This document shows, piece after piece, positions 29,905-49,124 of a stretch of DNA of 64,000 bases; the first letter of the stretch is position 1; every line of letters begins with the position of its first letter. Location: NCBI RefSeq assembly GCF_018977255.1, contig NW_024704742.1, forward strand, positions 26,910,001-26,974,000, given 5' to 3'. The position numbers and the translations under genes are program-made. This DNA is from Callorhinchus milii. Taxonomy: Eukaryota. Under the pieces are notes generated by a model. The model searched no databases and was not told where the DNA came from. It worked only from the letters and a program-made list of their open reading frames with translations.

Positions 29905-32287
29905 CGGCCTCCGATCACCACTTCATCTCCTTCACCACCTCCACCCCACTCCTCACCTCCACCAGACCCACCACCATCTTCTACCGCCCAGGAAGAAGTT
30001 ACCCCCACAATCCGTAACCGCTGCCTTAGAGTCCTCTCCCTCTGGCCTTCAACCTCACTGACCCCTCTTCTTCTCTCACCCTCCTCCACAAGACCCTCTC
30101 CCCCACACTCGACACTCTTGCCCCCATCACCTCCCGTACTGTCTCCAACTCTTGCTCCTCCCCCTGGTTCACCACCCACCTCCGCTCACTGAAAAGCCAG
30201 GTGTGGGCCGCTGAACGCACCTGCCTCAAATCTGGCCTAACGGTCCACCGACAAATCTGGCTGGACCTCCTCAAAATCTACCGCTCCACTCTAGCCTCGG
30301 CCAAGTCGTCCTTCTACTCCAGGATAATCCTGGAGGCGAAGAACAACCCCAGGCTTCTGTTCTCTACCACATCCCGACTCCTCCGTCCCCCCCGCCACCC
30401 CGCGCAGGTCATCTCCTCCAACCTTCACTGCGAGGAGATGCTGGATTTCCTTGAATCCAAAATCAAGGGAATCCGCTCCGCGGTCACTTCCCCTCCAACC
30501 TCCACCCACCCCCTCCCTCCCACACTCCGACTCCTACCCATCCTCCCCTGCACACCTTCGAACCCGTTTCCCCACCCTCTGTCACCAAACTCATCCTATC
30601 CCTGAAACCCACCACCTGCTCCCTTGACCCCATCCCCACTCCACTCCTTATCTCCCAGCTCCACTTTCTTGCCCCACATATCACCGACATCATCAACCTG
30701 TCCCTCTCCTCTGGCTCTGTCCCCATTCCCTTAAAAACTGCCACCATCACTCCCACTCTGAAAAAACCCTCCCTTGATGTGTCGCAGCTATCAAGCTACC
30801 GGCCCATTTCTTACCTCCCCTTCCTGTCCAAGGTCCTTGAAAACGTTGTCGCCTCCCAACTGCGCTCTTTCCTCTCCAACCATTCACTATTCGAACCGCT
30901 TCAGTCGGGTTTCCGTGCTGCCCATAGCACAGAAACTGCCCTGGTCAAGGTCACCAATGACCATCTGCGACCTTCTTGACCATCTGCGACCAGGGCTCCC
31001 TCTGCCTCCTCGTCTTCCTCGACCTATCGGCCGCATTCGATACGGTCGACTACGCTATCCTCCTCCACCGCTTGTCCTCCCACCTCAACCTTCAAGGCCC
31101 TGTCCTTGAGTGGTTTAGGTCGTACCTCTCCCACCGTCTTCATTTTGTTTCCACAAACGGCTTTTCCTCCACCCCCCGCACTGTCTCGTGCGGTGTCCCT
31201 CAGGGCTCTGTCCTCGGTCCCCTCCTCTTCACCCTCTATATGCTCCCCCTTGGTGACATCATCCGCAGACATGGGTTAACTTCCACATGTATGCGGATGA
31301 CACCCAACTCTACCTTTCCTCCTCTACCTTCAACTCCATCACCACCGATGTCCTGACAGCTGCCTGTCCGACATCGAGTCCTGGACGAGAGACAACTTTC
31401 TCCAGCTCAAAGTGCGCAAAACTGAGGCCCTCCTGGTTGGCTCACGTCAGCGCCTCCGCACCTCAGGCGCTGACAGCATCAGCATCCAAGGCTGCACTCT
31501 CCACCTCTCAAAGCCAGTCAGGAACCTCGGTGTTCTGTTCGACCCTGAGCTGTCCTTTCTTCCCCACATCCGCGCCACAACTGGCACCGCCTTCCATCAC
31601 CTGCGAAACATCGCCAGACTACGGCACTACCTCACCCCTCACGCTGCTGAAACTCTGGTCCACGCCTTTGTCACCTCAAGGCTGGACTATGGGAACTCTC
31701 TCCTCGCCGGCCTTCCCGCCACCTCCCTCCACAAGCTGCAGGTCATTCAGAACTCTGCAGCTCGTGTACTGTCCCGCACCAGGCTTCGGGACCACATCAC
31801 TCCCACCCTCGCTCGCCTCCACTGGCTCCCCATCCCCCAGAGGGTCAAATTCAAGATCCTCATCCTCAACTACAAGGCCATTCACGGCCTTGCTCCCTCC
31901 TACCTCTCCGACCTACTATGCCCCTACTTACCTGCCCGTACCCTCCGTTCCTCTGGCTCCGGTCTGCTCACCATCCCCCGCCCCAACCGCCCTACCATCG
32001 GTGGCCGGGCCTTCAGCCTCTCAGCCCCGAGGCTCTGGAACTCTATCCCCCAGTGCCTTCGCCGCCTCCTCCCTTTCCTCCTTCAAGGCCGGTCTCAAGA
32101 CCTTTCTCTTTGACCGTGCCTTCAGCTCCCCTCTCGACTCTCTACCCCTCCTCGCTCCCTCCCTTCCCTCCCCTCACCCTGACCATTTCCCCCCTGCTCG
32201 GGTCCTGACCCAACTGTCCAGCGCCTTGGGACGTCCTCCCGACGTGAAAGGCGCTCTATAAATGGAATCTTCTTGTTGTTGTTATTA
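29905..32287 (+). mobile_element. L2 LINE, 5'-truncated, relatively young, frameshifted ORF2 (end of APE domain, RT, tail)
   Basis: [71 protein letters not shown]; tail gcgccttgggacgtcctcccgacgtgaaaggcgct + (TTG)n. Confidence 0.95.
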
Positions 32288-33268: not shown

Positions 33269-34272
33269 GGGCATGGTTTGAGTTAGTGAATAACTTTGAT
33301 GCTTGTGAAACCAGAGGCAACTTTGAGGTCAAATGAAAAGGGCGAGCTTTGTTTTTTATACACTCGCTTATCCAGTCAAAACTCTACTCCCAGGTTTTTG
33401 GGATGGGTTTTAGGAAAGGAATGTTAGAGAATTGAAAAAGGAGAAATTTGACGATCCAAGCTTAATGTGTGACTGCGCACTCTGCAGTGTTTTCAAGTTT
33501 CCTCTGTACTTTAATGGACTAAAGGGAGCAATCAAAGAGAGTGGTAACAAATAAGCAAAAGCAACAACAACTTGCATTCGTATAGTGCCCTTCACGCAGG
33601 GTAGCATCCTGAAGTGCTTCATGTGTACTGTCGTTAGTTTCTTATCTATTTGAGTACAATAGTAATTAGGTAATTCCTCCCAATCCTCTCCCTCACCCAG
33701 AAATGCCACCTCTTGTACTGTTGTCAAGAGAATGAGAAGCAAGGTTGCCACAAATGAAAATACGTTTGTGGTCCAAAGGCAACCAAATACAAGCCCAATA
33801 TTATGCGTCGCCTATTAGGATTATTGTAGGAGTAGCAGAGTGGCCAATTTAGATTAATGCGTTTGAAACTGTTTGAGAAAATCGTCTACAAAGGTGACCA
33901 AAAAAAGGTTGGCAAGTTTAAATGAATAAATTTAAAGGGTAGACACTCATCGAAAGCTGTTTCTTCACGCACAGTGCAACAAGAACTCGCTCAATCTGGC
34001 CACATCAGTGAAAAGCTGTACTATGTCCTACATCCTGTATCACACCTCACACTCCGTATCACACCTCACACTCTGTACTACGTTACCACATCATAGGATT
34101 GGGTTCAGGTGAATAACCTTTAAGGCTAGTACACTACACAAGGGGACTTGGGGCCCTGGAAGGACCATGCTGGACTGCTATTGGGTTAAATTCAACAAAT
34201 TAGTAGCCAGGGAGAGTCGTGTGGAATACTTCTAACAGCTGTCTGATTTCAGGTCTATCTCTGGTCCCCACC

Positions 34273-34428
34273 ATGTTTTGGTACCTGATAGTAATCCTCA
34301 TCATCGCACCAATAATCACATTGATGTTGGAGAAGAAACCAAAGAAAAAGTGTGACATCTACACTCAACCTGGGCCATTCTACTACCTGAAATTCATCAC
34401 AATTTACCTGATATTGCGATTAAGACGG
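34273..34428 (+). CDS. Novel gene coding exon 1 (MFWYLIVILIIAPIITLMLEKKPKKKCDIYTQPGPFYYLKFITIYLILRLRR)
   Basis: cccaccATG; hydrophobic N-terminus; CGG|gtacgt donor. An upstream acceptor (tgatttcag, 34252) hints at a 5' UTR exon. Confidence 0.78.
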
Positions 34429-37400
34429 GTACGTAAATCTTATTTAATGAAAACGATTGGGCTGCTCAGTGGCGTGGTGTGGACAGGTTGCCCCTGAGCC
34501 AGCGAGTGTAGATTTTGAGGTTCAGCGCTACCTGCCACTGAGACACCAGGCCATATGAGCAATGGGTTTCTGGCAAACACGTGGTCACTTGATTTCAGTA
34601 GAGAAGATTAGACAGCGGCATATTGGTCATGAAGTTTAATAACTGCTGTCTGAATCTCGAGCAAGCTATTCAAACTCATTATGTTAGTATCGCTATAGGA
34701 TGAAAATGGATTTAATGTTTTTAGAGCACGAGCAACATTTGGTTAAACTGATTCTGTAATTGTAGTCTAAAGCCGCTGAATGTGTCGTGCCAGGGTCAGA
34801 ATTTAAAAATTATAATGTAAGGAACGTCCCAGCGATTTGGGATGTCCTCCCGACTTGAAAGGCCTATACAAATCTAATTTATTATGGTTGTTGTTGTTTA
34901 TGTGGGCACAACCTTTCATTCCTCCTCCTTCGTCTTTTTGCTGCCAGTGGAGGGGCCAGCAGGAGAATGTGGCACAGGGTGTAACAGCCGGCTATGGGCA
35001 GCAATCCCGCAACACCCCAGCACAAATGGACTGCATTCAGCCTCTGTCCAGCCATCCAAAGGTCTGAGCTATTGCATTTTGTTCCCTGCTGATACTATCT
35101 TTGTCTGCTGTCGTTTGTCATTTTAAGCCATGGTGGGCTGAATGGCCTCTTTGATGTAGGATGTGATGTTGGATTGTATGATATGTGCTCCAAGACACTG
35201 CCCTTCGTGTAGAGCGCTTTATGATTGCAAGTTGTTCTTTCTGCTGCTCTCGCGTCATTAGTCACGGACAGTGCATGCAGAAGTTTGATCATCTTTTAAC
35301 AAAAACAGAAGTCGCTGGGAACACTCAGCAGGTCAGGCAGCACCTATGGAGAAAGGAAAGTGAGTCACCGTTTCGGGTCCACGACCCTTCGTCAGAAATG
35401 GGGCATGTTGGGAGGGAGAAACGTTTAAGGGTTAACAGAGAGGGGAGAGGCAGAACAAGGAAGACAAGGGAGAAAATGGAGTAGAGGACAGGGGATGATG
35501 AGTTAAAGAGGTGTTAATGATGCAAAACAAGAGGGATGGGGGAAAGAATTGCAACAAAATAGGCAGACCAGAAAAAGAAAAGGTGTGTCTGAGACCAAGA
35601 TGATGTGGTAATGGTCACGGGAGAAGGAGAGGGGGAAGGTGAGGTGTTGTGGTCTGAAATTGTTGAAATCAATATTGAGGCCAGAGGGCTGTAAGGTCTG
35701 TTGCAATCCCCCCTTTGTTTTGCATCATTAACACCTTTTTTAACCCATCATCCCCTGCCCTCTACCCCATTTTCTCCTGCCTTCCTTGCTCTGCCTCCCC
35801 CCTTCTCTGTTAGCCCTTAAAAGCCTCTCCCTCCCAACCTGCCCCAGTTCTGACGAAGGGTCGTGGACCCGAAGCTTTGACTCACTTTCCTTTCTCCATG
35901 GATACTGCCTGACCTGTTGAGTGTTCCCAGCGACTTCTGTTTTTGTTTTCAGATTTCCAGCATCTGCAGTATTTTGTGTTTTGTTTGATTATCTTTTGTT
36001 AGTTTGCATATTACTACTTGCTTGTGCACAAATTGACTTCTGTGTCTACAATCCTACAGTCACTACATTTAACAGTAATTACTGTAATCCACTTTGGCAG
36101 GAGATCTTCCGGTCTCCTGCCATTCAACTCACACACCCATTCACAGTCTGACCTCTCCATCCATGGTCTCCTACACTGTTCCAATGATCCACAGCGAAAG
36201 CTTCAGGTACATCTTATCTATCTGCTCGGGACCCTACAGCCCTCTGGCCTCAATATCGATTTCAGCCACTTCAGACCATAACAGCTCACCTTCCTGGGGC
36301 TATGTCTCGGAGCGCTGCACAGGGATGGGGTTGGACCCCGAGGTAGAGGGGGAGGTGGCCACTGGTGCATTTGATGAGGTAGGATTTGAGGCACCACCTA
36401 AAACTAGAGCTAAAGTCCTGTAGCTCAGTGGTTAGAGCACTCGCTTTGCAAGTGAGAGACCTGAGTTCAATTCCAGGCAGAGGGCGATACCTTGGGCAAG
36501 TTTCCTTACTCCACACAGAGCCTAATAATAATCCCTCCAAAACCAAAAACAATAATAAATTGGTCATTTTCACTCTACGACTGTTTGTGGGACATTGCTG
36601 TGCGCAATTGGCTGCCGCGTTCGCCCACAATTATACAGTCAATACACTTTACAGTGTTTTCTGTGAAGCGCTTTGGGACGTCCTCCCGACTTGAAAAGCG
36701 CTATATCAAATGCAAGGATTATTATTATTATTAGGATTATGAAAAGAGCTAACAGAAGAGTTTTCTTGTTATCATTACAATCATCACCCCAGTCACCAGT
36801 CAATCTTTGCCTCTCTCTAGTGTGTTGCCTGTTGTGCACCATTAAAGCCCCTTCTTCCCAGTTTTGTTTCAACACCTCCCACTTTTGCTGTACAACCCCC
36901 CCCCTTTTGTTTTACACCACTATAATCTCTTTAGCCCATCAACTAATACATTCTCTTCTTTGTCTTCCTTTGTGTCTTCTTTGTCGTCCTTGTCCTGACT
37001 CCCCCACTCAACTTGTCCTTAAAAACCTCTCCCTCTCAACATACCCCAGTTCTAATGAAGAGTCGTGGACCCGAAGCTTTGGCTCACTTTCCTTTCTCCA
37101 TAGATGCTGCCTGACCTGCTGAGTTTTCCCAGCTCTCTGTTTTTGTTTCAGATTCCAGCATCTGCAGTATTTTGTGTTTTGTTCAGAGAATAAGTTACAT
37201 CACCACATTTGGTAACAGAGCCTTCAGATCCCCCACCTCTAATCTGTACCTCCGCCCCTTCATCTCGCCCCCTCTATTTCTAGTTTTAGGTGGTGCCTCA
37301 AATCCTACCTCATCGAATGCACCTGTGGCCACCTCCCCCTCTCCCTCGGGGTCCAACCCCATCCCTGTGCAACGCTCTGAGACATAGCCCCAGGTGAAGG

Positions 37401-40400
37401 GAGCAATATGAATGCAAGTTGGCGTTGGAGTATACCTGCCCTTTTTCTACATTGCTAAATCCAGGTTCATCTGTCCACGGCTAATATTGTTAGCCATGCA
37501 TTTTTAATATGTTCAATTGTTGAATTCAGGTACATCTCATTTGCAAACTCATTTGGAATTGTTATGTTAATTATCCCCGTTGTCACAGCCTTAATCAGAC
37601 AGAGTTAAAACGCAAGTAATATTATGCAGGAAGCACCCGATTTAAAAAAAAACTTTTGCACCAAAATTCACATTGAGTGCTTTTTGCAAATAGTCACAAG
37701 AAAAAGATGACTCCACAATGGCAAGAAATTGCAAACACTTGTTTGTAATTCTTCTTCTCCAATCTCCACACCTCCTCCCTTCTCTCCTGAAGGCAATGAC
37801 TCACACTTGCAATTGTCACAAACTATTTCATGGGCGCTGGATGTTGAAATGACTGCTCCTTATTTGGTAGGTTACCGTGGGTGAGCATTGCCTCATGATG
37901 CTGTCATCTGTGTGAGTGCTTTAAGGAGGAGGGTTTGTCCTTGAAAGTCACATGGTTTGGAGTTTAAGAAAATGATCTTAAAATTTAAGATCGCACAGAA
38001 TAAGAACTACAGAAAACTGGCTTCCATATTACAATAACAACAAAATTACATTTATTTAATGCCTTTCACGTCTGGAGGACGTCCCAATGCACTGGACAGT
38101 CAAGGTTTTACACTGTACTGGGGGTTGGATCCAAGAGGATTGGAGGATTAGGGGTTGGTTGGGAGGGTGGCCAAAAGCAGGACAAAACGGGAAAGCCTTG
38201 AGACAGGCCCTGAAGGAGGCGGGGATTGGGTGATGCGGAGGGAACTCCGCGGGATGGAGTTCCAGAGAATGAGGGCAGAAAAACTGAAGGTCCGTCAACT
38301 AATGGTGGAGGGGGCACGGCAGGGGACATGAAGCAGGTCAGTGCCTGCCAAGTGTCAGGAGTGGGCAGGTTGCTATGGTGGTAAGATTGAATTTAAGAAT
38401 CCTGGTTGGCACTTCACCTCTATCACAACAAGGGTTTCACAGTGAATACCCATTTACACACACAGAGATACATACACTCACACACACACACACACACACT
38501 GCCCAACAGTGCTCGGGCTGTAAAGCTATTGCATTGCTGAATGGGGACATCCTGTGGCCATGATGTGTAAATCAGACGGAATCCGACAAGGCTCCACCAC
38601 CTTCCCTGTCACGACCTGCTCAGACATCGCTTACAGCAGATTTTTGGCCGTTTGCGTCAAAGCCTTTTCTTCTTCACAAGGAAATTGTTTACAACCCACT
38701 GCAAGTGATCATTGCAAATACATTTTTGAAAAATGATTCATTACTTATCTGACAATGCAGTGTTCTAGAAGTAAATCAATAAATTGTTTGCTTATTCCAT
38801 CTTTTTAACAAAAATTGTAAATTATATTTTTTAGGTTCTGTATGAAGTGTGATACCTGGAATGGCTGCTTTTCAGCCTTCCCATTTCCTGAATATTACAA
38901 GGAGGGGAAACCCCTTTTTGCAGAAATGGGAACAAAAATAAGGAAACTGAGAAATCAAGGAGAGAAAAAATACAGGAAGTTCATCAGTGAAAAATGTGTG
39001 ATTTACACCAAATCTGTGATTCTGACAATATATTAATCCATACATTTGATATATTGCCTTATCACATCTAAGCATCTCAAATTGTTCCACGCATTTTTTC
39101 TGTAAAGTGTAGTGACTGTGTATTTGTAGGTGATCGTGGCTGCCAATTTGTGTACAGAAGTGTTCTAGAAACAGAAATGAAGTGAGTGACCAATTGTACC
39201 CGGGGGATTGTGTGCCAGGAGAAACTCCCTTTTCTTTTTGAATAGTGTCATGGGATCTTTAACAATCACCTGAACAGGAATAATGTCTCATTTGAAGGTT
39301 ATTTGACTGTGCTTAAAACAGTTCACTATGCACAGTACTGTGCAATACAGTTCACATTTATGTGGCTCCTTTCACATCGGTAGGACGTTCCAAAGCACAG
39401 CTCACACTGTGAATGTGATTTTCTTGTTTCGCCATTTATTTTATGGTTACTAGCAATCTGCCGGTGAGCCAGCAGATTGTCTAGCAATAAAATTTTAATA
39501 GCCCAAATCTTCTGTACCCACTGCTGATACATTCCCCCAAATTATACAAAATATTGGTTAGAAATAAATAACCCTTTGGGGTGGGAGACAGTGTTTTGAT
39601 GATTTTTACACGAGCGAATATTCATTCACCCACAAACCTCAGAACGCCAAAGCTGTGTTACGGGAGAATAGCTGTAACTGTTAGGGAGAAAATGGTCCTT
39701 GCACTAACTCTTATATGAGACGGGCACAGAAAGGAGAGGATAACATTGTAATAATAATCCTTACATTTACTATAGAGCCTTTCACATCGGGAGGATGTGT
39801 TACAGTGCTTCACAGGATGTACTGTTGACTGATGTGTTGGAGATGAATCCCCAGTAGACTCGAACGCTTTTCGACCACATGGCTGCAGTTATTCACAATT
39901 GATTGGTTCTGCTTCCATGTTCCAGGCAATCGATGCAGTTTACTTCAGTGCAGCCAATGAGAATGGCTGCTACCTGGTGGGAGCCATTGCACGAAGGCCA
40001 GCCAAAATGATCAACGGCTTCCTCTACATTAAGGTTTGTGTACACGGGTCATTCTGCTCTTCTGTTCTTACTTTGCACAGTTATAATAAGGTGTGTTGTG
40101 TTGCAAGGCATCCCTTTCCTGGCAGCCCAAAGAAAATGATGACATGGTGAAATTTTGTCTGGTGTTTCACACGGTGGTAATGAATGCAATGATCGCGGGC
40201 CGTGACAGCAAGAGAAGTCCATGGAGAACTGGCCCAGCCTTGGGCCATGGACTCACATAGTTTGATCTAAGATGACACTCCAGTGAGATCCTGTCTGCCT
40301 CTTCAGGTGGAGATTGAAGATCCCATGACACTATTCAAAAAGGAAAAGGAGTTTCTTCCAGTGTCCTGGCCAATAATCCTTCAAATAAAATTGGTCACTC

Positions 40401-43400
40401 CATAGCCATTTGTGGACATTGCTGTGTCTAATGCACCTTTGTGGATTTGACCGGTTGAGGTTCACACCAGCAATTGACGTAATATTTAAATATAGTACAT
40501 GTCAGGATACCATAATCAGGAAGGTGTGCTGACTGCTTGTATCTCTGGTTGTTCATCTCTGTGTCTTGCCCCGTCTGCACTTTGCAGTTGCCTGAGACAG
40601 GGCTACTGCTATCCCCTCGGCTGCCCGACACGCTGATGTCTACACATGAGGAGGCCTTCGGGGCTGAGGGCCTGCTCTTCCAGCCGGTGGAAGCCATGAG
40701 GAAATGGAAGCTCACTTACGATGGGGCTATGAGGTCAGCAAGTTACAGTCGCTTAGAAAGAATTCACAAAAGCAAAGAGCAGGCTGATTTTTCCTTCCTT
40801 GAACCTAAGGAAGGCCAGGACAAATATTGTCTCTCAATGAAGCTGAGACCAGCACGGCTTGGGATTTGATTCAGTAAACTTGTGGCCCATATGTTGTTGC
40901 TCTATCCACTACACAATCAAAGCTGGCAATATGCAGCGAGGTTGCCCATATCATACCCTCAAACAATCCTTATTTTTTTTAAAGTGTTATTATTTTCTCC
41001 CATCTCTTTTTTTTGATCAGTTGCAGAAATTCATCACCATGCTTAAGAGCATCCAAACCAAACGGAGAATTCCAAACCAAACTGGCTGTTCATGAAGAGG
41101 TTTAGTTGTCTATTCATGTGGAGCAGGGCAGAGGGTGGCTTTTCACATAGTGGTTCAGTGGATAACTGGGTTGTGTGTTGTGTTGCTGTGCCATACCGGT
41201 CAGCAAGGTCTGCTTTGACCTTTGTCCTGTGCCTAAATTGGTGGTTCCCAGCCAGAGTAGTGGTAGGAGCAATATCACTGGTCTAGGGTGGGACGAGGAA
41301 AAATAGCCTACGTTCCTGCTCTGCATTGCTACCCAGTGCACATCTGGAAAGGACAAGAGTCGCTATTGTGTGCTGCTGAGTGAAAATTCTTTAATGAATA
41401 AGTAATACAATCTAGTAAGTGTCTATTTGTGGACTAAGAGCCTATAAGTGGAGTCCCGTAGCGTATTGGGTTAGCACACATGCCTCGAAAGTGAGAGGAC
41501 CTGGGTTTGATTCCCGAGCAGGGTGAAACCTTAGGCGTGTTTCCTTACACCACATACCTCTGTTTATCTAGCAGTAAGTAGTAACCTAGTTGTTAGTTTG
41601 GTGGTAATAATCCCTCCCCTGAAAAAGTATGATCACTTAATCCACGACTGTTTGTGGGACACTGCTGTGTGCAATTACCTACTGCATTTGACCACAAAAT
41701 ACACAGTCAATTCACTTTACAATATTTTCCATGAAACGCTTTGGGACGTCTCAATGAAGTGATAAGGTGCGATATCAAATGCAAAGATTATTATTATTAT
41801 TATTTCTAACTGGATCCTTTAATAAGGAACTCTGAGTACTGCCTCTGTCTGGCAGGAAGTACATCTCACCAATCTACTGGTATTCCGCTCCTAAAGTACA
41901 TTGTTTGGAGTGTAATTCTCGTCAGTCAGTGTGATACGCTGCTGGTTTCCCAATCCGATTAGGAATCACCAGATTACGAGACCACCACTGACAGTCATTG
42001 GTCTGAGGTTTATAACAGGGGAACTTGAAACGTCTGATTCTCATAGTTGGTGTGGTCTCAATATCAGGATGTTGTGTTTCCAAAAAGGCTGGATAAAGGA
42101 GACCAATTGGTGCACGTGTGCATGAACCTAGACTGGGAAAGTAAGTTGGACTACTTTGATTTTGATACGGACATGCATTCCATCGCACTCGCAAAGGCCA
42201 TCGCTAGGGAACAGTGGTCCAAGGAGTTTTTTAAAAAGCTTGAAGAGTAAGTGAAATTAAAAACATTTCAGACTTCATATTCAGTTTTATAATCATCAAA
42301 CTATAATTGTATTTTTCTCTGGCAGTTTTTTTTAGAAAATGTCATACAATTCTATCCAGTAGCTCTGGCTTTATAATGTTTTATTTTCTCTCTCTGCTCA
42401 GTGTTAAATTTGACTTTAATTGTAGCATTAGGTCATTGTTAATACTGAGCTATCTCCTGTGGTTACAATTATCCGTTGAATAACTCCTGTCTATGCATTA
42501 GTCTCCACCAGACTCACCATGAACAGTTTGGAAAAATCACTGGTACAATTCAGATCGATGGGTTTGGTTGTCATAAAGTTACCTTGGATTCAATGAGGGA
42601 CCATTCTTTTGGTGAGTGTTACAGGCTGTCTAATCTTGTACTGATCTTCTCCCACCTCAACTAAAATCGTATACTGATCTCCCTCCGCTTTGCCCCCCTT
42701 CTTCCGCCTTCAGTACCTTATTACCTATCCCTTTGACTGTGCTTTCAGCTACCTTTCCCCTCTCCTGATCTCTCCCACCCCCTCTCGAACTCCAGAGCTC
42801 GGACTCCCGTTGTGAAGCGCTTTGAGATATCCTCTGAATGTGAAGGGCGCCGTAAATTATCATTGTTATTGATAACGCATTTGATTTCTGTTTCTATGAG
42901 AATGATGGATGGCAAATTGCAAATAATTTGTCAGTTGTCGTTTTTTTTCACAAAAAGCTAACCAAAGTTGACTGCAATGACAACTCAGTGGTGAAGTGGT
43001 AGAATAACATAACATTGATCTAAGCAGTGATGATGTATGTGCACACTCTTGGGAATATGGTGTGTGGGACCATATATTGAGTACTTCTCCGTCATGCAGT
43101 AGGTATATATATATTTATTTTTATATATATATATATAAAAAACACAAAATACTGCAGATGCTGGAAATCTGAAAACAAAAACAGTTATTTATATATATAT
43201 AAATAAATCTTGTCGCTGCAGTTGCTCTATTCCTTCAGTAATTGATTTTAGGTTTTAGATATTTTTCATCACAACTGTAATAAATATGATAGCTGTTCTG
43301 TTAATAAGAAAGATTGTCTTATTTGCTCATCTCATCGGGTGCTTGTTATTTTGCAATATGTTTCGCCCACAAAATACACCAGCAATCCACTTTATAGTAT

Positions 43401-46400
43401 TACCCGTGAAGGGTTTTGACATGTCTCAATGATGTGATAAGATTCTATATCAAATGCAAGAATTATTACTATTATTGTTATTTGTAACCTTGGTTGCTCA
43501 GGTCCACTTCCCAGGCCTCTGAGTGACTGCATCAGAAATGTGAACACTTTCTCACTCTCTTACTAGAGAAATGATGCAGAGACTCTAAACGTAGGAGGGA
43601 ACACAGTCTATTTTTTAAGTAATTAAAAATATATAATTTCATGTCACTTTTATAAATAATTGTTGAAAGTACATTTTCCATTAAAACTTTCACCTTTGTA
43701 TTTCCCTTTTATTTTTTTTCTCTTTCTCTTTGTGTTCTTCTTTGTTTACCTTTCCTTTCATCTCCATTCCCCCAAACCCCACCCCTTCTCTCACTGGCCC
43801 TGCCCTACATTGTAGGAGATCATCGGGATTGGAAGTACTTCCATCGTTATGGTTTCCATATGGGCACACTGAATGATGGGACCAGTTTCAACATAGGAAT
43901 TGTCTCGCAGAGCAATCTGCTCACTGTGTAAGTGCAGTTGGTGAAAGACATTGTAGACAATTGCTACTGATGCATAATAACTCGAGCCTGGTTTAACTTG
44001 TCACTAACACTTACGTCAATCATGCTGTCAATAACCCAGCCACATTTATTCATACAGTATATTTATAAATATGCCTAACTGGCCACTCCGGATAACTCAA
44101 CACGGAACCCTTTTCCCTTGGAGTGACGAGTTATCAGGAGTTCACTGTGGAAGCTGAACGGAGTTGAGATATTATCAGGACTCATGATATTATCAGATAG
44201 TATCAGGCCACAAGATATCATGTTACGGGCTGTATTACAATGCAATACAACTGAGACCCAGCCCCAACCCTAACTAGATAATGAGGGAATCAGACACAGA
44301 GAGCAACCTCCTTCCTCCCTCTCCCTCTCTCCCCTTGTCAAATTTAAGGTTGGATTATTTTCTATTTATGTAACAAAAAAAATTTCGAACACCATTGAGT
44401 TATTCTGAAGTCTCAGTCACAGCAAGTTATGGTTCAAAGTGTTAATGTCAGTGTTGCGATATTCGCATTGCAGGCAATGTCGGTATCACAAGTGGAAGGT
44501 GTGTAGATATTGAGGTGTCAGTCAGCCTGGCTCGGTTGGTAGTATTCTCGCTTCTGAGTCAGAAGCTGTGTGTTCAAGCCCCACGTCAGGACTTTGAACT
44601 CATAGTCTTGGCCATATTGACTTCAATGCAATGCAAAGTCTGTTGTATTGTTTGACGTGCAATTGATGTGACCTTAAAGCAAGGTCCCATCTGTTTGCTC
44701 AGGTAAATGTTAAAGATCCCATGGCATTCTGATAAAACAGAGAAGGGAGTTTCTCCCGGTGCCTGGCCAACAAATCCTCAAAATAAATTGATTATTTACT
44801 TAATGGTTGTTTGTGGGACATTGTCTGTCAAATTCCCTGTAAAATACACAGATACTGCCCTTTGCAGTATGTCTGGTGAAGCATTTTATTTTGGGGTTTC
44901 CATGGATGATGGATCGATAATCAGAGGACACAGATTTAATAATAACTTTCCAAAGGGTGTATATGTGAAAAGGAAAAAATTGCAAGGCAATGGGAAAACA
45001 GCGGGGGAGTGGGATTAATTTGAATAGCTCTTTCAAAGAGCTGACACAGCCAGGATGGTGTCGAATGGCCTCCTTCTGTGCTGTAAGATTCTATGATTCT
45101 ACATTTGTTAGCTAGGTACCCGGAAAAACTCAGGAATTGTTGCAGCCGCAGCTCTATTACAAATAACTAAACCTCAGTTGAACGCATTACACTTTTTGTA
45201 ATCAGTTGGTTTATGATAACAGTGTTTTAGTTTTGTTGTCTTTATTGTTACAGTGGTTAAAAAGGGCCTGTGCCAAGCTCAGTGTGTTGTTTATTGCAGC
45301 CTGGAGTTGGGATACCTGTATACCCCCTCAGGTGAAAAGCACCCAGTAAAGTGGTGTGGACTGGATTTAGCATGTCACGGGGAGGGAGGAACCCCACCTT
45401 TGGATTATGGATTTGAGTTTGAAGCAGGTAATGAAACATTAAATATGTTTTCCTGTTGCATGGCGTACTGTTTGCAGCACAAATGAAAATGTATTCTACA
45501 TTTTTAAGTTGTGCTTTTCAGTTGCTAAATGGTCAAGATTTGGAGGATAAACCACTAAATTGCTGGACTGTAATATAAACTTGGCAGTTCATTCACTTCC
45601 ATTCCCTGTAATTGCTTATCTTGTGTTCAGAGTATTCCAATGTCAGAATGGGTTTATTATTTTACCAGAGGTCACATTAGAGTGTGTACCACATACAGGT
45701 GGGTATCCAAAAAATGCGCACATCCTAATTGATCGTTCGTAACACGGACCAGTCAACTGGCAGGCTTCATTTCGGTCCAACCCCACAATCAGAACCGAAA
45801 TGAAACAAGCCAGTTGATCGATTCACCTTCCGCATGATATCTGATGACAATCAGATATGTGAGAAAACAAAGAACTTTGATTGATAAGCTTCGGATTGTT
45901 AAAAACAAATTGTGTACATGGTATTCACAGTGTATGCCAATCTTTTCTGACGGGCAATTTCTTTTTGAGTAACGTCACTTAGCCCCACCCACTCTTGCAC
46001 AATAGGGGAAAATAATTGAGCAACAAGCTGGCCAGGTAAGCCAGGAAATTCACAGCATAGTGGTTTTCGGCTGTCTGTTACGTGCTGAGTTTTTCATGCA
46101 TTGGTGGTTAAGTCGTAGAATTCTTGCCTGCCACGTAAAACCTGGGTTTGATTCCAGGCCTTTCACGTAGGAAGGACGTCCTAATTGTTTTACAGGATTT
46201 ACTGTAAAGTATATTAAGCGACTGTGTCTTTTATAGGACACCCATTAACTGTGATGATATTGCTCCTGCTCTTCACCTGCAGGTGGGAAGCGATACTTTT
46301 TGCAGTGTCAGATTTTGGCAAGCCCGGAATTCTATATTGGGATGGAGTGGGAAGCTCGGATAGTGGAGAGACTGGCTACATACACTGTAAATGGTGTGAA

Positions 46401-48352
46401 AGGCTGGGGGATTTCAGAGTGGCACTACAGGTAACCTTTCCTTTAAATAAATAATGGTCAACTAAGAATGCCAGCATCCTTTTCTACTTGGTAATATTCA
46501 TCGCAAAAAATAAACTCCTGATGCAGTTTTAATAGATAGGGCTTTTCATGAATTTGCTTATTTCTCAGTTGGTTGTAATGTGTACTCAGTCATATCATTC
46601 AAATTGATTTGTCGCAAGATCTTCAAGAAAGTCCAGGTGAGCGTTCAGAATCGTAATGTGACACCGGTGAAATGTCTGGAATGAAAAATATCACACTCGT
46701 ACATCTTCTCCACCTTTCCCTCTCTTTATGTGGGGAAGAATTTAGGCTCATCCATTGACCATCTAACTGAGATCTTCCATTCACTGTTTAGAGAACAGTA
46801 CGGTTGTTGATGGTTGCAACCTGGGCCTTACGAAAGGATGGCAGAGTACATTGCAGCTCTAGTTTGTGTCCCTATCTCGCCTTCTGTCTTGTGTGCTGAA
46901 TCAAGTGAGCCAATCCTCCCAAGCCAACAGAGCCTTGGGACGTCCTCCCGATGTGAAACACTACACAAATGTAATTTTGTATTGTACTGTAATTACACTA
47001 ACTTAAATAATTATTAATGATCCTTTCATTTGATATAGCGCCTTATCACGTCTTCGATACGTCTCAAAGCGCTTCACAGAATATACTGTAAAGTGAATTG
47101 ACTGTATATTTTGGGGCTAAATGGGGGAGCAATCGCACATAGCAGTGTCCCACAAACATTCATGGAGTGAGTGACCACATTTTTTTTTATGAATGGACTA
47201 GCTGTATCCATTGCAGCTACGCTTGCAACCAAAGGATCCAATATTGAATATAGATTTCAGTGATACCACTCACAAACTATTTAACATGCCATAAACATTG
47301 TGTGTACACTTTAAGCAAACTGCTATACATGTGTGATGAGCTTGTTTAGGTCATAGCTCATCAACAATAGGAGATTCCCCCGCCCCCCACCCCAAAAATA
47401 TACCCTTGATACTCCCCATGAAAGACCTTTCCGATGAGGTATAAATCGATGAGGTATATAACAGCAATTGATGATTGCGTTATTGGCTGTCAGACACACA
47501 TGCAGTGTGTGAGCTGTGCCGGGATCTCTCTCTCTCTCAGCTCCTGTTGCTTAGTCAGTCTGGGCAGGTTAAAGGCTTCACTTTAACCCTCTCTCCTCCC
47601 TCCCTCCTGGCACACTCACTCACTCACTCATTCACAGACACACACTCGCTCATATAACCTTTCCCCTCTCCTCCATCCCTCCCCCAAAAAACCTTCTCTC
47701 ACTTCCTCATTCTTGCCCTCGAGAGATTATGGGACTCAGCGTATTTTTTTTGGGGGGTGTGGGGGAGCGGAGAGATTTAATTTTAAAAATGTAGCATTGA
47801 ATTTTTTTACACCGCTCTCTTCCCTCCTTCCCTCTCTCTGTCCCTCTCCCAATGTATTTCTCTGGACGGGTGCTAGGTAAACATAGGTGTGTGGAGTAAG
47901 GAAACTTGCCCAACATTTCGTCCTACCCAGGAATCAAACCTAGGTCCTCTCACTTTCAAGGCAAGTGCTCTAACCACTCAGCTACATGTAGTACAGATTG
48001 AAGAAGCTATAGAAATATCAAAACTTGTCTGATAGACAAAGATGAGAAAAAATGTATCTCTACTACCATCACTCCATGGCTGTTTGTGGGACACTGCTGT
48101 GCCATAACTAGCTGCCGCTTTTTACCCACAAGATACACAGTCAATCCACTTCACAGTATATTCTGTGAAGCACTGAGACGCAACAATGTGATAAGGCGCT
48201 ATATCGAATGCAAGGATTATTATAACTTCCCTTCACTAAAATGAATCATGAACTAAGATTGAAAATGTTCCAAGATGTGTTCTAACCGCTATATTTTTAT
48301 GGCTATCAGGCATCATGGAGGAAGACCAGAGAAATACGCTAACAGAAAATAA
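34273..48352 (+). CDS. Uncharacterised 407-aa protein with N-terminal hydrophobic anchor; 10 coding exons (34273-34428, 34948-35061, 39926-40033, 40588-40733, 42088-42246, 42502-42611, 43816-43927, 45300-45427, 46283-46430, 48310-48352)
   Basis: Kozak-like cccaccATG at 34273. Nine GT-AG introns with matching phases (0,0,0,2,2,1,2,1,2). The 1224 nt join has no internal stop and ends in TAA. Motifs DAVYF, YFDFD, HQTHHEQFG, MRDHSFGDHRDW, GWGISEWHYR. Confidence 0.88.
34948..35061 (+). CDS. Novel gene exon 2 (WRGQQENVAQGVTAGYGQQSRNTPAQMDCIQPLSSHPK)
   Basis: Long pyrimidine tract + ccag acceptor, AAG|gtctga donor, phase 0-0. Confidence 0.8.
35363..35399 (-). ncRNA. Minimal hammerhead-ribozyme-like motif in Penelope terminus
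   Basis: CTGACGA-A-GGGTC-GTG-GACCC-GAAAC: both core boxes flanking a perfect stem II. Confidence 0.55.
35846..35882 (+). ncRNA. Hammerhead-like motif, variant copy
   Basis: agtt-CTGACGA-A-GGGTC-GTG-GACCC-GAAGCTTT-gact; GAAG instead of GAAA. Confidence 0.45.
36100..37180 (+). mobile_element. Penelope-like element 3' part, interrupted by an inverted L2 piece and a SINE
   Basis: FNSHTHSQSDLSIHGLLHC...HLIYLLGTLQPSGLNIDFSHFR ends at 36281; terminal repeat with a degenerate hammerhead at 37048-37084. Confidence 0.8.
36414..36733 (+). mobile_element. Young tRNA-SINE
   Basis: Family match to 73-400. Confidence 0.92.
37195..37425 (+). mobile_element. Old L2 3' fragment; part duplicated in inverted orientation at 36288-36408
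   Basis: TTFGNRAF, FRWCLKSYL and an L2-like tail. Confidence 0.7.
38030..38405 (-). mobile_element. L2 3' fragment
   Basis: cctttcacgtctggaggacgtccc tail; FRACLKAF. Confidence 0.75.
39926..40033 (+). CDS. Novel gene exon 3 (AIDAVYFSAANENGCYLVGAIARRPAKMINGFLYIK)
   Basis: gttccag / AAG|gtttgt, phase 0-0. Confidence 0.87.
40588..40733 (+). CDS. Novel gene exon 4 (LPETGLLLSPRLPDTL...EAMRKWKLTYDGAM)
   Basis: ctttgcag / AG|gtcagc, phase 0-2. Confidence 0.87.
41448..41803 (+). mobile_element. Older long-form tRNA-SINE
   Basis: gtggagtcccgtagcg head, ctctgtttatctagcagtaagt internal segment, (TTA)n tail. Confidence 0.85.
42088..42246 (+). CDS. Novel gene exon 5 (LDKGDQLVHV...YFDFDTDMHSIALAKAIAREQWSKEFFKKLE)
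   Basis: tttccaaaaag acceptor (weak, exact 5' edge less certain), gtaagt donor, phase 2-2. Confidence 0.82.
42502..42611 (+). CDS. Novel gene exon 6 (LHQTHHEQFGKITGTIQIDGFGCHKVTLDSMRDHSF)
   Basis: gcattag / G|gtgagt, phase 2-1. Confidence 0.87.
43816..43927 (+). CDS. Novel gene exon 7 (DHRDWKYFHRYGFHMGTLNDGTSFNIGIVSQSNLLT)
   Basis: Long pyrimidine tract + ttgtag / gtaagt, phase 1-2; absent from the ORF track. Confidence 0.87.
43965..44147. mobile_element. Second copy of the 10062-10243 MITE, inverted
   Basis: gacgagttatcaggagttcactg terminus; ataactcgagcctggtttaac and agccacatttatt match the other copy. Confidence 0.6.
44519..44885 (+). mobile_element. Older Deu-domain SINE
   Basis: gtcagcctggctcggttggtag head; gttaaagatcccatggca core. 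Confidence 0.78.
44900..45100 (+). mobile_element. CR1 3' tail
   Basis: gaatggcctccttctgtgctgtaagattctatgattct. Confidence 0.78.
45300..45427 (+). CDS. Novel gene exon 8 (LELGYLYTPSGEKHPVKWCGLDLACHGEGGTPPLDYGFEFEA)
   Basis: tttattgcag / G|gtaatg, phase 2-1. Confidence 0.87.
46098..46160 (+). pseudogene. Degenerate tRNA-Gly(GCC) copy
   Basis: gcattggtggttaagtcgtagaattcttgcctGCCacg...gggtttgattccaggcc aligns to canonical tRNA-Gly-GCC; 3' acceptor stem missing. Confidence 0.65.
46283..46430 (+). CDS. Novel gene exon 9 (GKRYFLQCQILASPEFYIGMEWEARIVERLATYTVNGVKGWGISEWHY)
   Basis: cttcacctgcag / AG|gtaacc, phase 1-2. Confidence 0.87.
47013..47987 (-). mobile_element. Long-form SINE split into tail (47013-47190) and head (47872-47987) by ~680 bp of other sequence
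   Basis: Both parts are on the minus strand in the correct order. Confidence 0.6.
47197..47656 (-). mobile_element. Candidate non-autonomous Helitron
   Basis: Minus strand ends ttgcaagcgtagctgcaa (hairpin) + tggatacag + CTAG-T; (CACT)n-like tract near the other end. Confidence 0.3.
48310..48352 (+). CDS. Novel gene terminal coding exon (HHGGRPEKYANRK*)
   Basis: ctatcag acceptor, phase 2, TAA at 48350-48352; short, so less certain. Confidence 0.65.
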
Positions 48353-49124
48353 GACCACGGCCAGATTCAAAATGGTTGGAACAGCAAATGGAATGGAAAA
48401 AACTTTAACTTTACTGTGCTTTTTAGTGATGTAATTGTGCTCTTCGTAGAGTGTCTCACGCTCAGCAGATTCGTTCAGTTATAAAGAAACTTTGATTTTG
48501 TTTGTGAAGCCTGTAATTAATGCAATAATTTTTTGAGAATTCGTCAAGTCTCATCTGTTACTAAAGTATGTGGAAAATTGCATTGAGAATTGTCTCCTAT
48601 GTTTTGCTCTTCAACTGCATTTAAGAATAACTTTTCTCCTATGACTTAACCGAAAAAGTAATCCTCGTTTAAAATGCACAGGAAAGCAAGATAATTGACA
48701 ACCCAAAAAAAGGTTTTGAAATACAAAATCATTGTCTCACTTAGTGGCATCTTTCACTCTGAGTGAACAAATCACTAACTTGCTCAGTTGTATCTTTTAG
48801 CCTGAGAGAGCAAAATGGTTGCTCCATACACACACCTGTTACTTCCTCCCAATGTTATAGCAATCTGGCAATGGTAGTGGTCCACAGTTAACATTTCTTT
48901 GGTGAAATTACATTTCTTGCAGTTTATGTGATTAACAGAAATAGGTGAAGGAGAGAGACCAATGACCTAAGTATGCAAACACCACTTTTTTGTTGTTAAT
49001 CTTTTCTGCTAAAAGCAAACACCTTCAAACTTCATATTCAACAATTTATCTTTCCGTGTCCTCTATATGCAAGGATTATTATTATTATGTAATCTAGAGT
49101 TTACTATCACTGGATTATTTTTTC

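What the first reader, a model, noticed from the sequence alone, without database searches (positions are those of the whole stretch)
34273..48352. Hidden intact 10-exon gene for a 407-aa membrane-anchored, enzyme-like protein that I cannot match to any human gene
Seen in sequence: ten short exons join through GT-AG introns with consistent phases into an uninterrupted 407-aa ORF with a good Kozak start, although the introns are full of transposons. That argues for purifying selection. The protein has a hydrophobic N-terminus, a second short hydrophobic/basic helix (FYYLKFITIYLILRLRR), then a beta-rich body with DAVYF, YFDFD, HQTHHEQFG, MRDHSFGDHRDW and a terminal GWGISEWHYR. Recalled, unverified: HxEQxG...RDHSxGxRxW...GxGxxE resembles AttH/CrtC/tocopherol-cyclase-like double beta-barrel proteins, including actinobacterial hypothetical proteins, and the N-terminal domain of invertebrate PEP-synthase/rifampicin-phosphotransferase-like proteins. 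In human, TBC1D14 is followed by CCDC96/TADA2B/GRPEL1 and nothing like this gene. Inference: a stand-alone small-molecule or lipid cyclase/hydratase-like enzyme retained in this lineage and lost in mammals, pointing to an undescribed vertebrate metabolic activity.
Basis: partly seen in the sequence, partly recalled or inferred. Interest (0 to 1): 0.88.

Follow-up and report, generated by a model that had tools for sequence, protein, structure and literature searches.

The report
Membrane-anchored lyase-like enzyme gene, elephant shark
This is a real, expressed ten-exon gene for a membrane-anchored double-barrel enzyme of unknown function, already listed in public databases as an uncharacterised elephant-shark protein, whose relatives point to removal of phosphate from a fatty alcohol that a partner kinase has phosphorylated.

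Summary
Ten + strand exons (34273-48352) join through nine GT-AG introns into a 1224-nt ORF of 407 aa. The product is letter-for-letter XP_007895908.1, [quoted passage not shown], so the gene is annotated, not hidden. Contigs of four runs from two studies carry the spliced form.

It is colinear with a 409-aa lamprey orthologue at 57% identity. It belongs to a ~410-aa stand-alone family known from arthropods, molluscs, amphioxus and others.

The AlphaFold2 model (pLDDT 96.1) shows an N-terminal helix anchor, a second helix and the AttH-type double beta-barrel. The only solved structure found by sequence is bacterial 25-phosphosteroid lyase (E 1.1e-6), which is also the top Foldseek hit.

Relatives are tied to kinases:
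- All 17 long forms tested are fused to a PPDK_N kinase domain.
- 49 of 50 non-redundant bacterial loci have such a kinase gene directly downstream.

Best reading, inferred and not shown: a phosphate-eliminating C-O lyase for a lipophilic phosphoester. Loss in mammals was not tested.

The parts
34253..34428 (+). First coding exon. The splice acceptor is at 34253, with 20 nt of 5' UTR. ATG at 34273, donor after 34428. Encodes residues 1-52: the hydrophobic anchor, a KKPKKK cluster and the start of helix 2.
   Evidence: model; contigs X1#1 and X3#11 cover 34253-34427 exactly and continue on both sides with sequence that does not lie at 34100-34252, so an upstream non-coding exon exists. (hydropathy, helix 2-19).
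34948..35061 (+). Coding exon 2 (residues 53-90), phase 0/0. A conserved linker (AGYG..SRNTPAQM..QPL..PK).
   Evidence: Aligns to lamprey P0002 residues 53-89. The joints to exons 1 and 3 are not among the rows displayed.
39926..40033 (+). Coding exon 3 (residues 91-126). Start of barrel 1, with the DAVYF motif (D93).
   Evidence: Contig X5#17 covers 39923-40031 with 35 and 27 further letters that lie elsewhere.
40588..40733 (+). Coding exon 4.
   Evidence: The GT..AG joint to exon 5 is seen in 4 of 4 runs.
42088..42246 (+). Coding exon 5 (YFDFD, E216, W218).
   Evidence: Joints on both sides are seen in 4 of 4 runs.
42502..42611 (+). Coding exon 6 (HQTHHEQFG ... MRDHSFG: H233, E235, Q236, R260, D261, H262, S263).
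   Evidence: Joints in 4 of 4 runs. Pfam DUF7065 tail, E 0.018 on the exon alone.
43816..43927 (+). Coding exon 7 (DHRDW: R268, W270, R275). Start of barrel 2.
   Evidence: Joints in 4 of 4 runs.
45300..45427 (+). Coding exon 8.
   Evidence: Joints in 4 of 4 runs.
46283..46430 (+). Coding exon 9 (E373, GWGISEW: G385, G387, E390).
   Evidence: The joint to exon 8 is seen in 4 of 4 runs. Contiguity with exon 10 within contigs X5#18, X1#5 and X2#9 follows from the record coordinates.
48310..48352 (+). Coding exon 10 (last 13 residues plus TAA). The 3' UTR continues to at least 48500.
   Evidence: Contigs run 48307-48500 and beyond.
38233..38289 (+). Alternative first exon of predicted isoform X2 (P0001, 336 aa, no membrane anchor). 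It is repeat-derived.
   Evidence: 95% match to P0001 residues 1-20. Similar stretches occur at 4342-4413(+), 27634-27569(-) and 32049-32008(-). Its use in RNA was not shown here.

Best explanation
Shown: the region holds an intact, spliced and transcribed gene for a 407-aa protein. The protein has an N-terminal hydrophobic helix (2-19) followed by KKPKKK, a second helix (37-57), a conserved linker, and a two-barrel body (about 92-394) of the AttH fold. It carries Pfam DUF7064 plus the tail of DUF7065.

Inferred: the helix is an uncleaved membrane anchor that leaves the barrels in the cytosol. The basic cluster follows the helix. The kinase-fused paralogues share the same N-terminus, and their kinase part needs ATP.

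Inferred mechanism: the barrels bind a lipophilic alcohol that has been phosphorylated by a kinase, and expel the phosphate as a leaving group. This is C-O lyase chemistry, as in bacterial 25-phosphosteroid lyase, which turns a tertiary sterol side-chain phosphate into an alkene. The arginine, histidine and acid-rich conserved set would hold the phosphate and take up or deliver the proton. That set is D93, R114, E216, H233, E235, Q236, R260, D261, H262, S263, R268, R275, E373 and E390.

The elephant-shark gene is the kinase-less paralogue of a fused 'lyase-kinase' gene that the same genome carries on another contig. It would therefore depend on a kinase acting in trans. The substrate is unknown. 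Side-chain-hydroxylated sterols, bile alcohols or isoprenoids are only guesses.
For: Gene and expression:
- The model is identical to XP_007895908.1.
- GT..AG joints for five introns appear in 4 of 4 runs from 2 studies. Exon 9-10 contiguity follows from contig coordinates.

Selection:
- 57% identity over 406 aligned residues to the lamprey orthologue, with no frame break.
- All 27 near-invariant family positions that fall in P0001 are kept, and K40 is kept in exon 1.

Fold:
- AF2 pLDDT 96.1, pTM 0.93.
- Z 21-25 to six AttH-fold families; the next unrelated hit is Z 8.6 (lamprey model).

Link to the lyase:
- The family profile finds only 25-phosphosteroid lyase among 177,635 PDB sequences (E 1.1e-6).
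- The aligned blocks are DxxYF, QxG, RDxSxG..R and E..NG.G.G..E.
- 25-PSL chains are the top five Foldseek hits for the window's own protein (E 1.4e-12 to 1e-11). They also have the highest identity, 16-17%.

Link to kinases:
- 17 of 150 listed HMMER representatives are over 900 aa. All 17 carry PPDK_N and 14 of 17 also carry PEP-utilizers, C-terminal to the barrel domain.
- In bacteria the homologue is followed on the same strand by a PPDK_N+PEP-utilizers gene in 5 of 7 spirochaete loci.
- The same holds in 49 of 50 non-redundant metagenome loci with at least 300 nt downstream.
- A second kinase class is also fused: EcKL/APH in a protist and in an Actinomycetota cluster of 59 (a lead only).
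- The partner kinases sit in the PigC/RedH/Rph group of PEP-synthase-like enzymes, all below the equivalog cut-offs.
- 25-PSL itself works after a separate kinase, 25-HSK (PMC8449060 and PMC11061730, passages read).
Against: - No activity, substrate or ligand was tested.
- Identity to 25-PSL is only 14-17%, and each aligned block alone is weak (i-Evalues 1.4-26).
- By geometry alone 25-PSL scores lowest of the six AttH-fold families (Z 21.4 against 25.1 for AttH).
- The family's invariant H233 and E235 (HYEQ) read RFAQ in 25-PSL, so the catalytic set is not the same.
- I could not inspect coordinates, so I do not know whether the shared R/D/S/R residues touch the phosphate in 9G2I or 9G4C.
- The 25-PSL structure paper is not in the library searched.
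- This gene has no kinase domain, and no kinase was found among 126 ORFs of 70 aa or more elsewhere in the window.
- Linkage to a kinase is equally compatible with the barrel acting before the kinase, or only binding the substrate.
- The membrane anchor rests on hydropathy and a predicted helix only. No signal-peptide or topology predictor was run.
Confidence: 0.45

Rival explanations
1. A phosphate-independent enzyme of the AttH fold: a hydratase or dehydratase, isomerase or cyclase acting directly on a prenyl, isoprenoid or polyene substrate. Models are carotenoid 1,2-hydratase CrtC, kievitone hydratase, and the Fsa2/CghA/Phm7 pericyclases. In kinase-linked relatives it would make the alcohol that the kinase then phosphorylates.
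For: AttH, the pericyclases and kievitone hydratase score slightly higher Z than 25-PSL (25.1 and 22.4-23.3 against 21.4). The Atlas lists CrtC- and tocopherol-cyclase-labelled clusters among the neighbours (leads only). The stand-alone gene has no kinase in cis. The HYEQ motif is absent from 25-PSL.
Against: None of these families is found by sequence. The profile search of the PDB at E up to 10 returns only 25-PSL. Pfam gives no CrtC or tocopherol-cyclase hit at E up to 0.1. A near-obligatory operon or fusion with an ATP-using phosphotransferase is hard to explain for a self-sufficient hydratase. The four invariant arginines suit an anionic group.
Confidence: 0.27
2. A non-catalytic lipid-binding module. 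The barrels capture a membrane lipid and hand it to a kinase (fused or separate), or sequester or transport it.
For: Barrel folds of this kind bind hydrophobic ligands; this is general knowledge and was not tested here. Also consistent: the membrane anchor, the constant pairing with kinases, and the absence of a conserved third gene in 19 bacterial loci, 68 ORFs.
Against: About fourteen charged or polar residues are at least 90% conserved from bacteria to vertebrates. That pattern is typical of a catalytic site rather than a greasy pocket. Every characterised protein of this fold found here is an enzyme.
Confidence: 0.12
3. A decaying or mis-annotated locus: the open frame is an accident of prediction, or a gene on its way to loss.
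For: Among named hits, vertebrate orthologues were found only in lampreys and this species. Predicted isoforms X2 and X3 lack the N-terminus, and the first exon of X2 is repeat-derived.
Against: The ORF is intact with canonical splice sites. Spliced contigs come from two studies. All near-invariant residues are kept. Identity to lamprey is 57% after very long divergence.
Confidence: 0.02

Closest known systems
25-phosphosteroid lyase (25-PSL) of anaerobic bacterial sterol side-chain degradation (PDB 9FZN, 9G2I, 9G4C)
   Same: The same two-barrel fold (Z 21.2-21.4, 274 residues aligned). It is the only solved protein found by sequence (E 1.1e-6), sharing the blocks DxxYF, QxG, RDxSxG..R and E..NG.G.G..E. 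It acts on the product of a separate kinase (PMC8449060, PMC11061730, passages read), just as this family is fused or operon-linked to kinases.
   Different: Only 14-17% identity. It is soluble and bacterial, with no N-terminal anchor. It lacks the family's HYEQ His/Glu. Its kinase partner was reported as not adjacent in the genome (PMC8449060). Its substrate is a sterol C25 phosphate, whereas the substrate here is unknown.
Animal 'rifampicin phosphotransferase-like / putative phosphoenolpyruvate synthase' proteins of about 1200-1350 aa
   Same: Their first ~430 residues are homologous to this protein (33-39% identity). They include the N-terminal hydrophobic helix and the 'PG.W..LK' helix. 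A copy lies in this same genome at G000:C14:2927994-2953112. At least six of nine intron positions coincide within about 3 residues; this is approximate and based on six-frame hits.
   Different: They continue into PPDK_N and PEP-utilizers kinase domains. The window's gene ends 13 residues after the barrel. The stand-alone proteins form their own clade: 23 rows, SH-aLRT 100.
AttH-like protein NE1406 (PDB 2ICH), kievitone hydratase (7A0Q/7A0T), and Fsa2/Phm7/CghA-type pericyclases
   Same: The same fold with the highest geometric scores (Z 22.4-25.1, 268-283 residues aligned).
   Different: No detectable sequence relationship in the profile search. These enzymes use no phosphate and are not known to be kinase-linked (recalled, not tested).
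Bacterial DUF7064/DUF7065 proteins of about 335-350 aa (including the distantly matching NCBIfam 'Rv3169 family')
   Same: 22-29% identity over the whole barrel body. They share the same HYEQ.G, RDHS.G.R.W and G.G..E motifs.
   Different: No membrane anchor. They are encoded directly upstream of a PPDK_N+PEP-utilizers kinase. The Rv3169-family match is weak: 37 bits against a cut-off of 150, and it comes from a bacterial homologue, not the shark protein. Rv3168-Rv3169 is described as an operon with an APH-type kinase (PMC5340868 and PMC3691515, passages read).

Membership tests
Pfam DUF7064 (PF23212) | Score over the curated gathering cut-off (24.7 bits) | tested here: met
   P0223 scores 29.1 bits, E 1.4e-6, residues 269-392 on profile positions 1-123 of 126.
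Pfam DUF7065 (PF23213) | Score over the curated gathering cut-off (27 bits) along the 183-position profile | tested here: not met
   For P0001, only profile positions 144-182 match, at 16.1 bits and E 0.013. For P0223 there is no DUF7065 row at E up to 0.001. The first barrel is too diverged for this model.
AttH-type double beta-barrel fold | Two consecutive barrels superposable on solved members over most of the chain | tested here: met
   Z 25.1, rmsd 3.4 A, 279 residues aligned to 2ICH_A. Fourteen entries score Z 21-25, and the next is Z 8.6. The model has pLDDT 96.1.
25-phosphosteroid-lyase-like phosphate lyases | Detectable sequence homology to 25-PSL | tested here: met
   The profile of 79 family members against PDB sequences gives E 1.1e-6 (30.9 bits) over three blocks. 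25-PSL chains are Foldseek ranks 1-5.
25-phosphosteroid-lyase-like phosphate lyases | Conservation of the residues that bind phosphate and catalyse elimination | not testable with these tools
   The catalytic residues of 25-PSL are not known to me, and the structure paper is not in the library. No model coordinates could be inspected. The shared R-D-x-S-x-G..R and G.G..E blocks are seen, but HYEQ is not shared.
25-phosphosteroid-lyase-like phosphate lyases | Works with a kinase that makes the phosphoester | tested here: inconclusive
   This is met for relatives: 17 of 17 long forms are fused, and 49 of 50 bacterial loci are operon-linked. For this gene, no kinase domain was found in the protein or among 126 other ORFs of the window. 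A fused paralogue lies elsewhere in the genome.
25-phosphosteroid-lyase-like phosphate lyases | Phosphate elimination activity | not testable with these tools
   Needs an enzyme assay.
CrtC / kievitone hydratase (PF07143) and tocopherol cyclase (PF14249) | Pfam match | tested here: not met
   Neither family is listed at E up to 0.1 for P0001, P0002, P0005, P0037 or P0010. They appear only as structural or feature neighbours.

The most novel reading that the evidence does not exclude
Animals, including early-branching vertebrates, keep a two-step 'phosphorylate, then eliminate' system for lipophilic alcohols. It would be homologous to the bacterial kinase/25-phosphosteroid-lyase cascade. It is encoded either as one membrane-anchored lyase-kinase fusion or, as here, as a separate anchored lyase. 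The elephant-shark and lamprey enzyme would then dehydrate, or otherwise activate through a carbocation, a side-chain-hydroxylated sterol, bile alcohol or isoprenoid. That activity has no described counterpart in vertebrate metabolism.
Probability: 0.25. Interest if true: 0.8.

Novelty: new member of a known kind. Interest (0 to 1): 0.52.

Why it matters
The gene itself is already in RefSeq and UniProt as an uncharacterised protein, so its existence is not news.

Searches for DUF7064/DUF7065 gave 0 papers. Searches for the animal 'rifampicin phosphotransferase-like' names gave 11 papers; the 9 listed are all on bacteria or archaea, going by their titles and abstracts.

Three lines of evidence converge on 'the partner of a small-molecule kinase that uses phosphate as a leaving group':
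- The only sequence-detectable solved relative is a phosphate-eliminating lyase whose structures were released in January 2026.
- Bacterial homologues sit in a near-invariant two-gene operon with a PigC/Rph-type kinase.
- Animals carry the same pair fused behind a membrane anchor.

If this is right, many invertebrates, lampreys, chimaeras, a shark and a turtle carry ATP-dependent dehydration or activation chemistry that is absent from textbook animal metabolism. The patchy vertebrate distribution would then mark a lost pathway.

Tried and rejected
- Exon-by-exon Pfam scans gave only two weak hits. They were useful as a lead but not sufficient.
- An ORF at 44869-44955 that I first took for an exon is not part of the gene. 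It is absent from P0001 and P0223 and from the contigs.
- The look-up of sequencing runs listed no holder on record as RNA. The runs used are labelled 'RNA?' by guess; their spliced contigs are what I rely on.
- The joints E1-E2, E2-E3 and E3-E4 are not among the displayed rows (780 more joints were not shown). Contig lengths are consistent with them, but that does not prove them.
- No conserved third gene was found next to the bacterial lyase-kinase pair (68 ORFs in 19 loci), so context gave no clue to the substrate.
- The 25-PSL structure paper was not found. Only papers that predate the gene's identification were read, as passages.
- Our earlier-findings index had nothing for this genome or these words.
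- The search of the window's own genome with P0223 found only this locus (9 exon hits). That search scores only the best candidates, so this is not proof of a single copy.
- Deuterostome grouping: the vertebrate pair groups with arthropods rather than amphioxus. The AU test of vertebrates plus amphioxus gave p 0.043, but it was named after seeing the tree. I draw no conclusion about transfer or hidden paralogy.
- The identity of the upstream TBC gene as TBC1D14, and the human synteny, could not be checked with these tools. Only the RabGAP-TBC domain is seen.
- dN/dS was not computed because no orthologue coding DNA was available.


Full report
**1. The observation**

Splice-site enumeration followed. 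A database protein found with one exon served as a guide: P0001, 336 aa, labelled XP_007895909.1 'LOC103181315 isoform X2'. Together these gave ten exons:

| Exon | Window coordinates |
|---|---|
| 1 | 34273-34428 |
| 2 | 34948-35061 |
| 3 | 39926-40033 |
| 4 | 40588-40733 |
| 5 | 42088-42246 |
| 6 | 42502-42611 |
| 7 | 43816-43927 |
| 8 | 45300-45427 |
| 9 | 46283-46430 |
| 10 | 48310-48352 |

- They sum to 1224 nt, 407 codons plus TAA, with GT-AG at all nine introns and consistent phases.
- The product is identical to P0223 = XP_007895908.1, 'uncharacterized protein LOC103181315 isoform X1 [Callorhinchus milii]', also UniProt A0A4W3GD82. The gene is therefore real but already annotated.
- GWGISEWHYR is followed by 13 residues from exon 10.
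- The isoform X2 start exon (38233-38289) resembles repeats elsewhere in the window.

**2. Expression**

No holder is on record as RNA. Seven runs guessed to be RNA hold 9-18% of the sampled words of a 6.5-kb stretch whose exons make up about 14% of it. I laid the contigs of four of these runs (two studies) on 34100-48500.
- All four show GT..AG joints for E4-E5, E5-E6, E6-E7, E7-E8 and E8-E9.
- Single contigs (X5#18, X1#5, X2#9) run from exon 4 through exon 10 into the 3' UTR.
- Exon 1 is covered from 34253, an AG acceptor, to 34427 by two contigs that continue on both sides. A non-coding exon therefore lies further upstream.
- The E1-E2, E2-E3 and E3-E4 joints were not among the displayed rows. 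Contig lengths fit them.

**3. Relatives**

- A word-seeded search gave 59 proteins, 39 of them named. Two are vertebrate (Callorhinchus, Lampetra planeri) and 37 are invertebrate: crustaceans, insects, millipedes, molluscs, a brachiopod, an annelid and a nemertean. Most are about 400-420 aa.
- The lamprey cluster holds three species, and amphioxus has a copy.
- The lamprey protein is colinear with the model at 57% identity.
- An exhaustive HMMER search found 710 representatives at E up to 1e-3, of which 328 are at 1e-10 or better.
- All 27 near-invariant positions of the family that fall within P0001 are kept in the shark protein.

**4. Structure**

- AlphaFold2 gave pLDDT 96.4 for the lamprey protein and 96.1 for the window's own protein.
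- The model has helix 2-19, helix 37-57, then two beta-barrels.
- For the window's protein, Foldseek ranks five 25-phosphosteroid-lyase chains first (E 1.4e-12 to 1e-11). AttH 2ICH, kievitone hydratase and the Fsa2/Phm7/CghA pericyclases follow.
- VIA-align puts all six families at Z 21-25, with AttH highest (25.1) and 25-PSL lowest (21.4). 25-PSL has the highest identity, 16-17%. The next hit is Z 8.6 (lamprey model).

**5. The nearest characterised relative by sequence**

- A profile of 79 family members, searched against all PDB sequences at E up to 10, returns only 25-PSL: E 1.1e-6 and 9.4e-6.
- The aligned blocks hold the family's DxxYF, QxG, RDxSxG..R and E..NG.G.G..E.
- The family's HYEQ reads RFAQ in 25-PSL.
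- 25-PSL removes phosphate from a C25-phosphorylated sterol side chain to give the delta-24 alkene, after a separate kinase (25-HSK) has made the ester (PMC8449060, PMC11061730; passages read). Those papers predate the identification of the lyase gene. The paper describing the structures was not in the library.

**6. Kinase linkage**

- Of the 150 listed HMMER representatives, 17 exceed 900 aa. All 17 carry PPDK_N and 14 also carry PEP-utilizers, downstream of the barrel domain.
- Named examples are sea urchins, abalone, oyster, periwinkle, a flatworm, a starfish, a scorpion, a locust, a tunicate, a sawshark and a turtle.
- They share the N-terminal hydrophobic helix and the second helix.
- In Spirochaetota, 7 of 301 genomes have a homologue. 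In 5 of the 7 loci fetched, the next gene on the same strand, overlapping or abutting, is an 807-866-aa PPDK_N+PEP-utilizers protein.
- A metagenome scan gave 80 loci. 73 have a homologue of those kinases directly downstream. Six of the seven without one have under 300 nt of downstream sequence.
- After clustering at 90% identity, 49 of 50 loci with at least 300 nt downstream have the kinase. The exception is L070.
- The kinases match the PRK06241 'PEP synthase', PigC, RedH and Rph models, all below their equivalog cut-offs.
- No third gene is conserved around the pair.
- A second kinase class is also fused to the domain: EcKL/APH in the protist Artemidia motanka and, as an Atlas lead, in a 59-member Actinomycetota cluster.
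- A bacterial homologue weakly matches NCBIfam 'Rv3169 family'. Rv3168-Rv3169 is described as an operon whose first gene is an APH-type kinase (PMC5340868, PMC3691515; passages read).

**7. The same genome**

- The window is G000:C1:26910001-26974000.
- A fused paralogue lies at C14:2927994-2953112 on the minus strand. 22 of the 25 exon-sized hits fall there, and together they cover residues 4-1347 of the sawshark protein.
- No second stand-alone copy was found.
- At least six of the nine intron positions of the window's gene coincide, within about three residues, with exon edges of the fused gene (approximate). This argues for an old duplication of an intron-bearing gene.
- In a quick maximum-likelihood tree the stand-alone proteins form one clade (23 rows, SH-aLRT 100), apart from the fused forms and bacteria. 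Shark and lamprey are sisters (99).

**8. How it most likely works**

Shown: gene, transcript, fold, family, kinase linkage of relatives.

Inferred:
- (a) The N-terminal helix followed by KKPKKK is an uncleaved anchor with the barrels in the cytosol. The fused forms have the same N-terminus and an ATP-using kinase.
- (b) The barrels bind a lipophilic phosphoester and expel phosphate, giving an alkene or a carbocation-derived product.
- (c) The stand-alone paralogue relies on a kinase in trans.

I put this at 0.45. The main rival (0.27) is a phosphate-independent hydratase, isomerase or cyclase, possibly acting before the kinase. A binding-only role gets 0.12. The substrate is unknown.

**9. 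Novelty and verdict**

- The gene is annotated, and the family is a Pfam DUF with no paper in the library.
- The functional link proposed here was not found in the papers searched. It may, however, be discussed in the 25-PSL structure paper that I could not see.
- The finding is a new, membrane-anchored, kinase-less member of a known fold and family, with a concrete, testable function.
- 'Lost in mammals' remains untested.

Noticed in passing
window 19214-19570 (+): An ORF piece matching the C-terminal end of the RabGAP-TBC domain (PF00566 positions 171-214 of 216, E 3.6e-8). A TBC-domain gene therefore ends upstream on the same strand. Whether it is TBC1D14 was not established.
   Followed up: partly
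G000:C14:2927994-2953112 (-), loci L003-L014: The same genome carries a multi-exon paralogue matching residues 4-1347 of a sawshark 'rifampicin phosphotransferase-like' protein. It has the barrel domain fused to PPDK_N/PEP-utilizers kinase domains.
   Followed up: partly
window 38233-38289 (+); similar stretches at 4342-4413 (+), 27634-27569 (-), 32049-32008 (-): The first exon of predicted isoform X2 (MRRELRGMEFQRMRAEKLK) resembles a dispersed repeat in the window. That isoform may therefore be a prediction artefact or a repeat-derived alternative start.
   Followed up: no
window 4953-5387 (-), 30455-31353 (+); 30001-32000: Reverse-transcriptase (RVT_1) fragments of retroelements. The 30-32 kb stretch is also the most G+C-rich of the window (0.58) with strong negative GC skew.
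   Followed up: no
window 36088-36423 (+) and 37195-37446 (-): Inverted copies of one repeat inside intron 2, seen as near-identical peptide strings in opposite-strand ORFs. Contig depth there reaches 10^5 in the laid runs.
   Followed up: no
tree (P0223, P0002 against P0236 and arthropod rows): The shark and lamprey proteins group with arthropod sequences (14 rows, SH-aLRT 100) rather than with amphioxus. Forcing vertebrates plus amphioxus together costs 33.6 log-likelihood units (AU p 0.043, a test named after seeing the tree). This could be hidden paralogy, rate artefact or something else.
   Followed up: partly
L070:4980-5978 (+): The one bacterial locus with ample downstream sequence and no kinase. 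Here the homologue follows a Peptidase_U32 gene and faces an FAD-binding gene.
   Followed up: no
P0154 / P0232 (Artemidia motanka transcripts): A protist protein joins an EcKL/APH-type kinase domain to a C-terminal DUF7065/7064 barrel. This is the opposite domain order and a different kinase class from the animal fusions.
   Followed up: partly
window 22993: A single N in the window.
   Followed up: no
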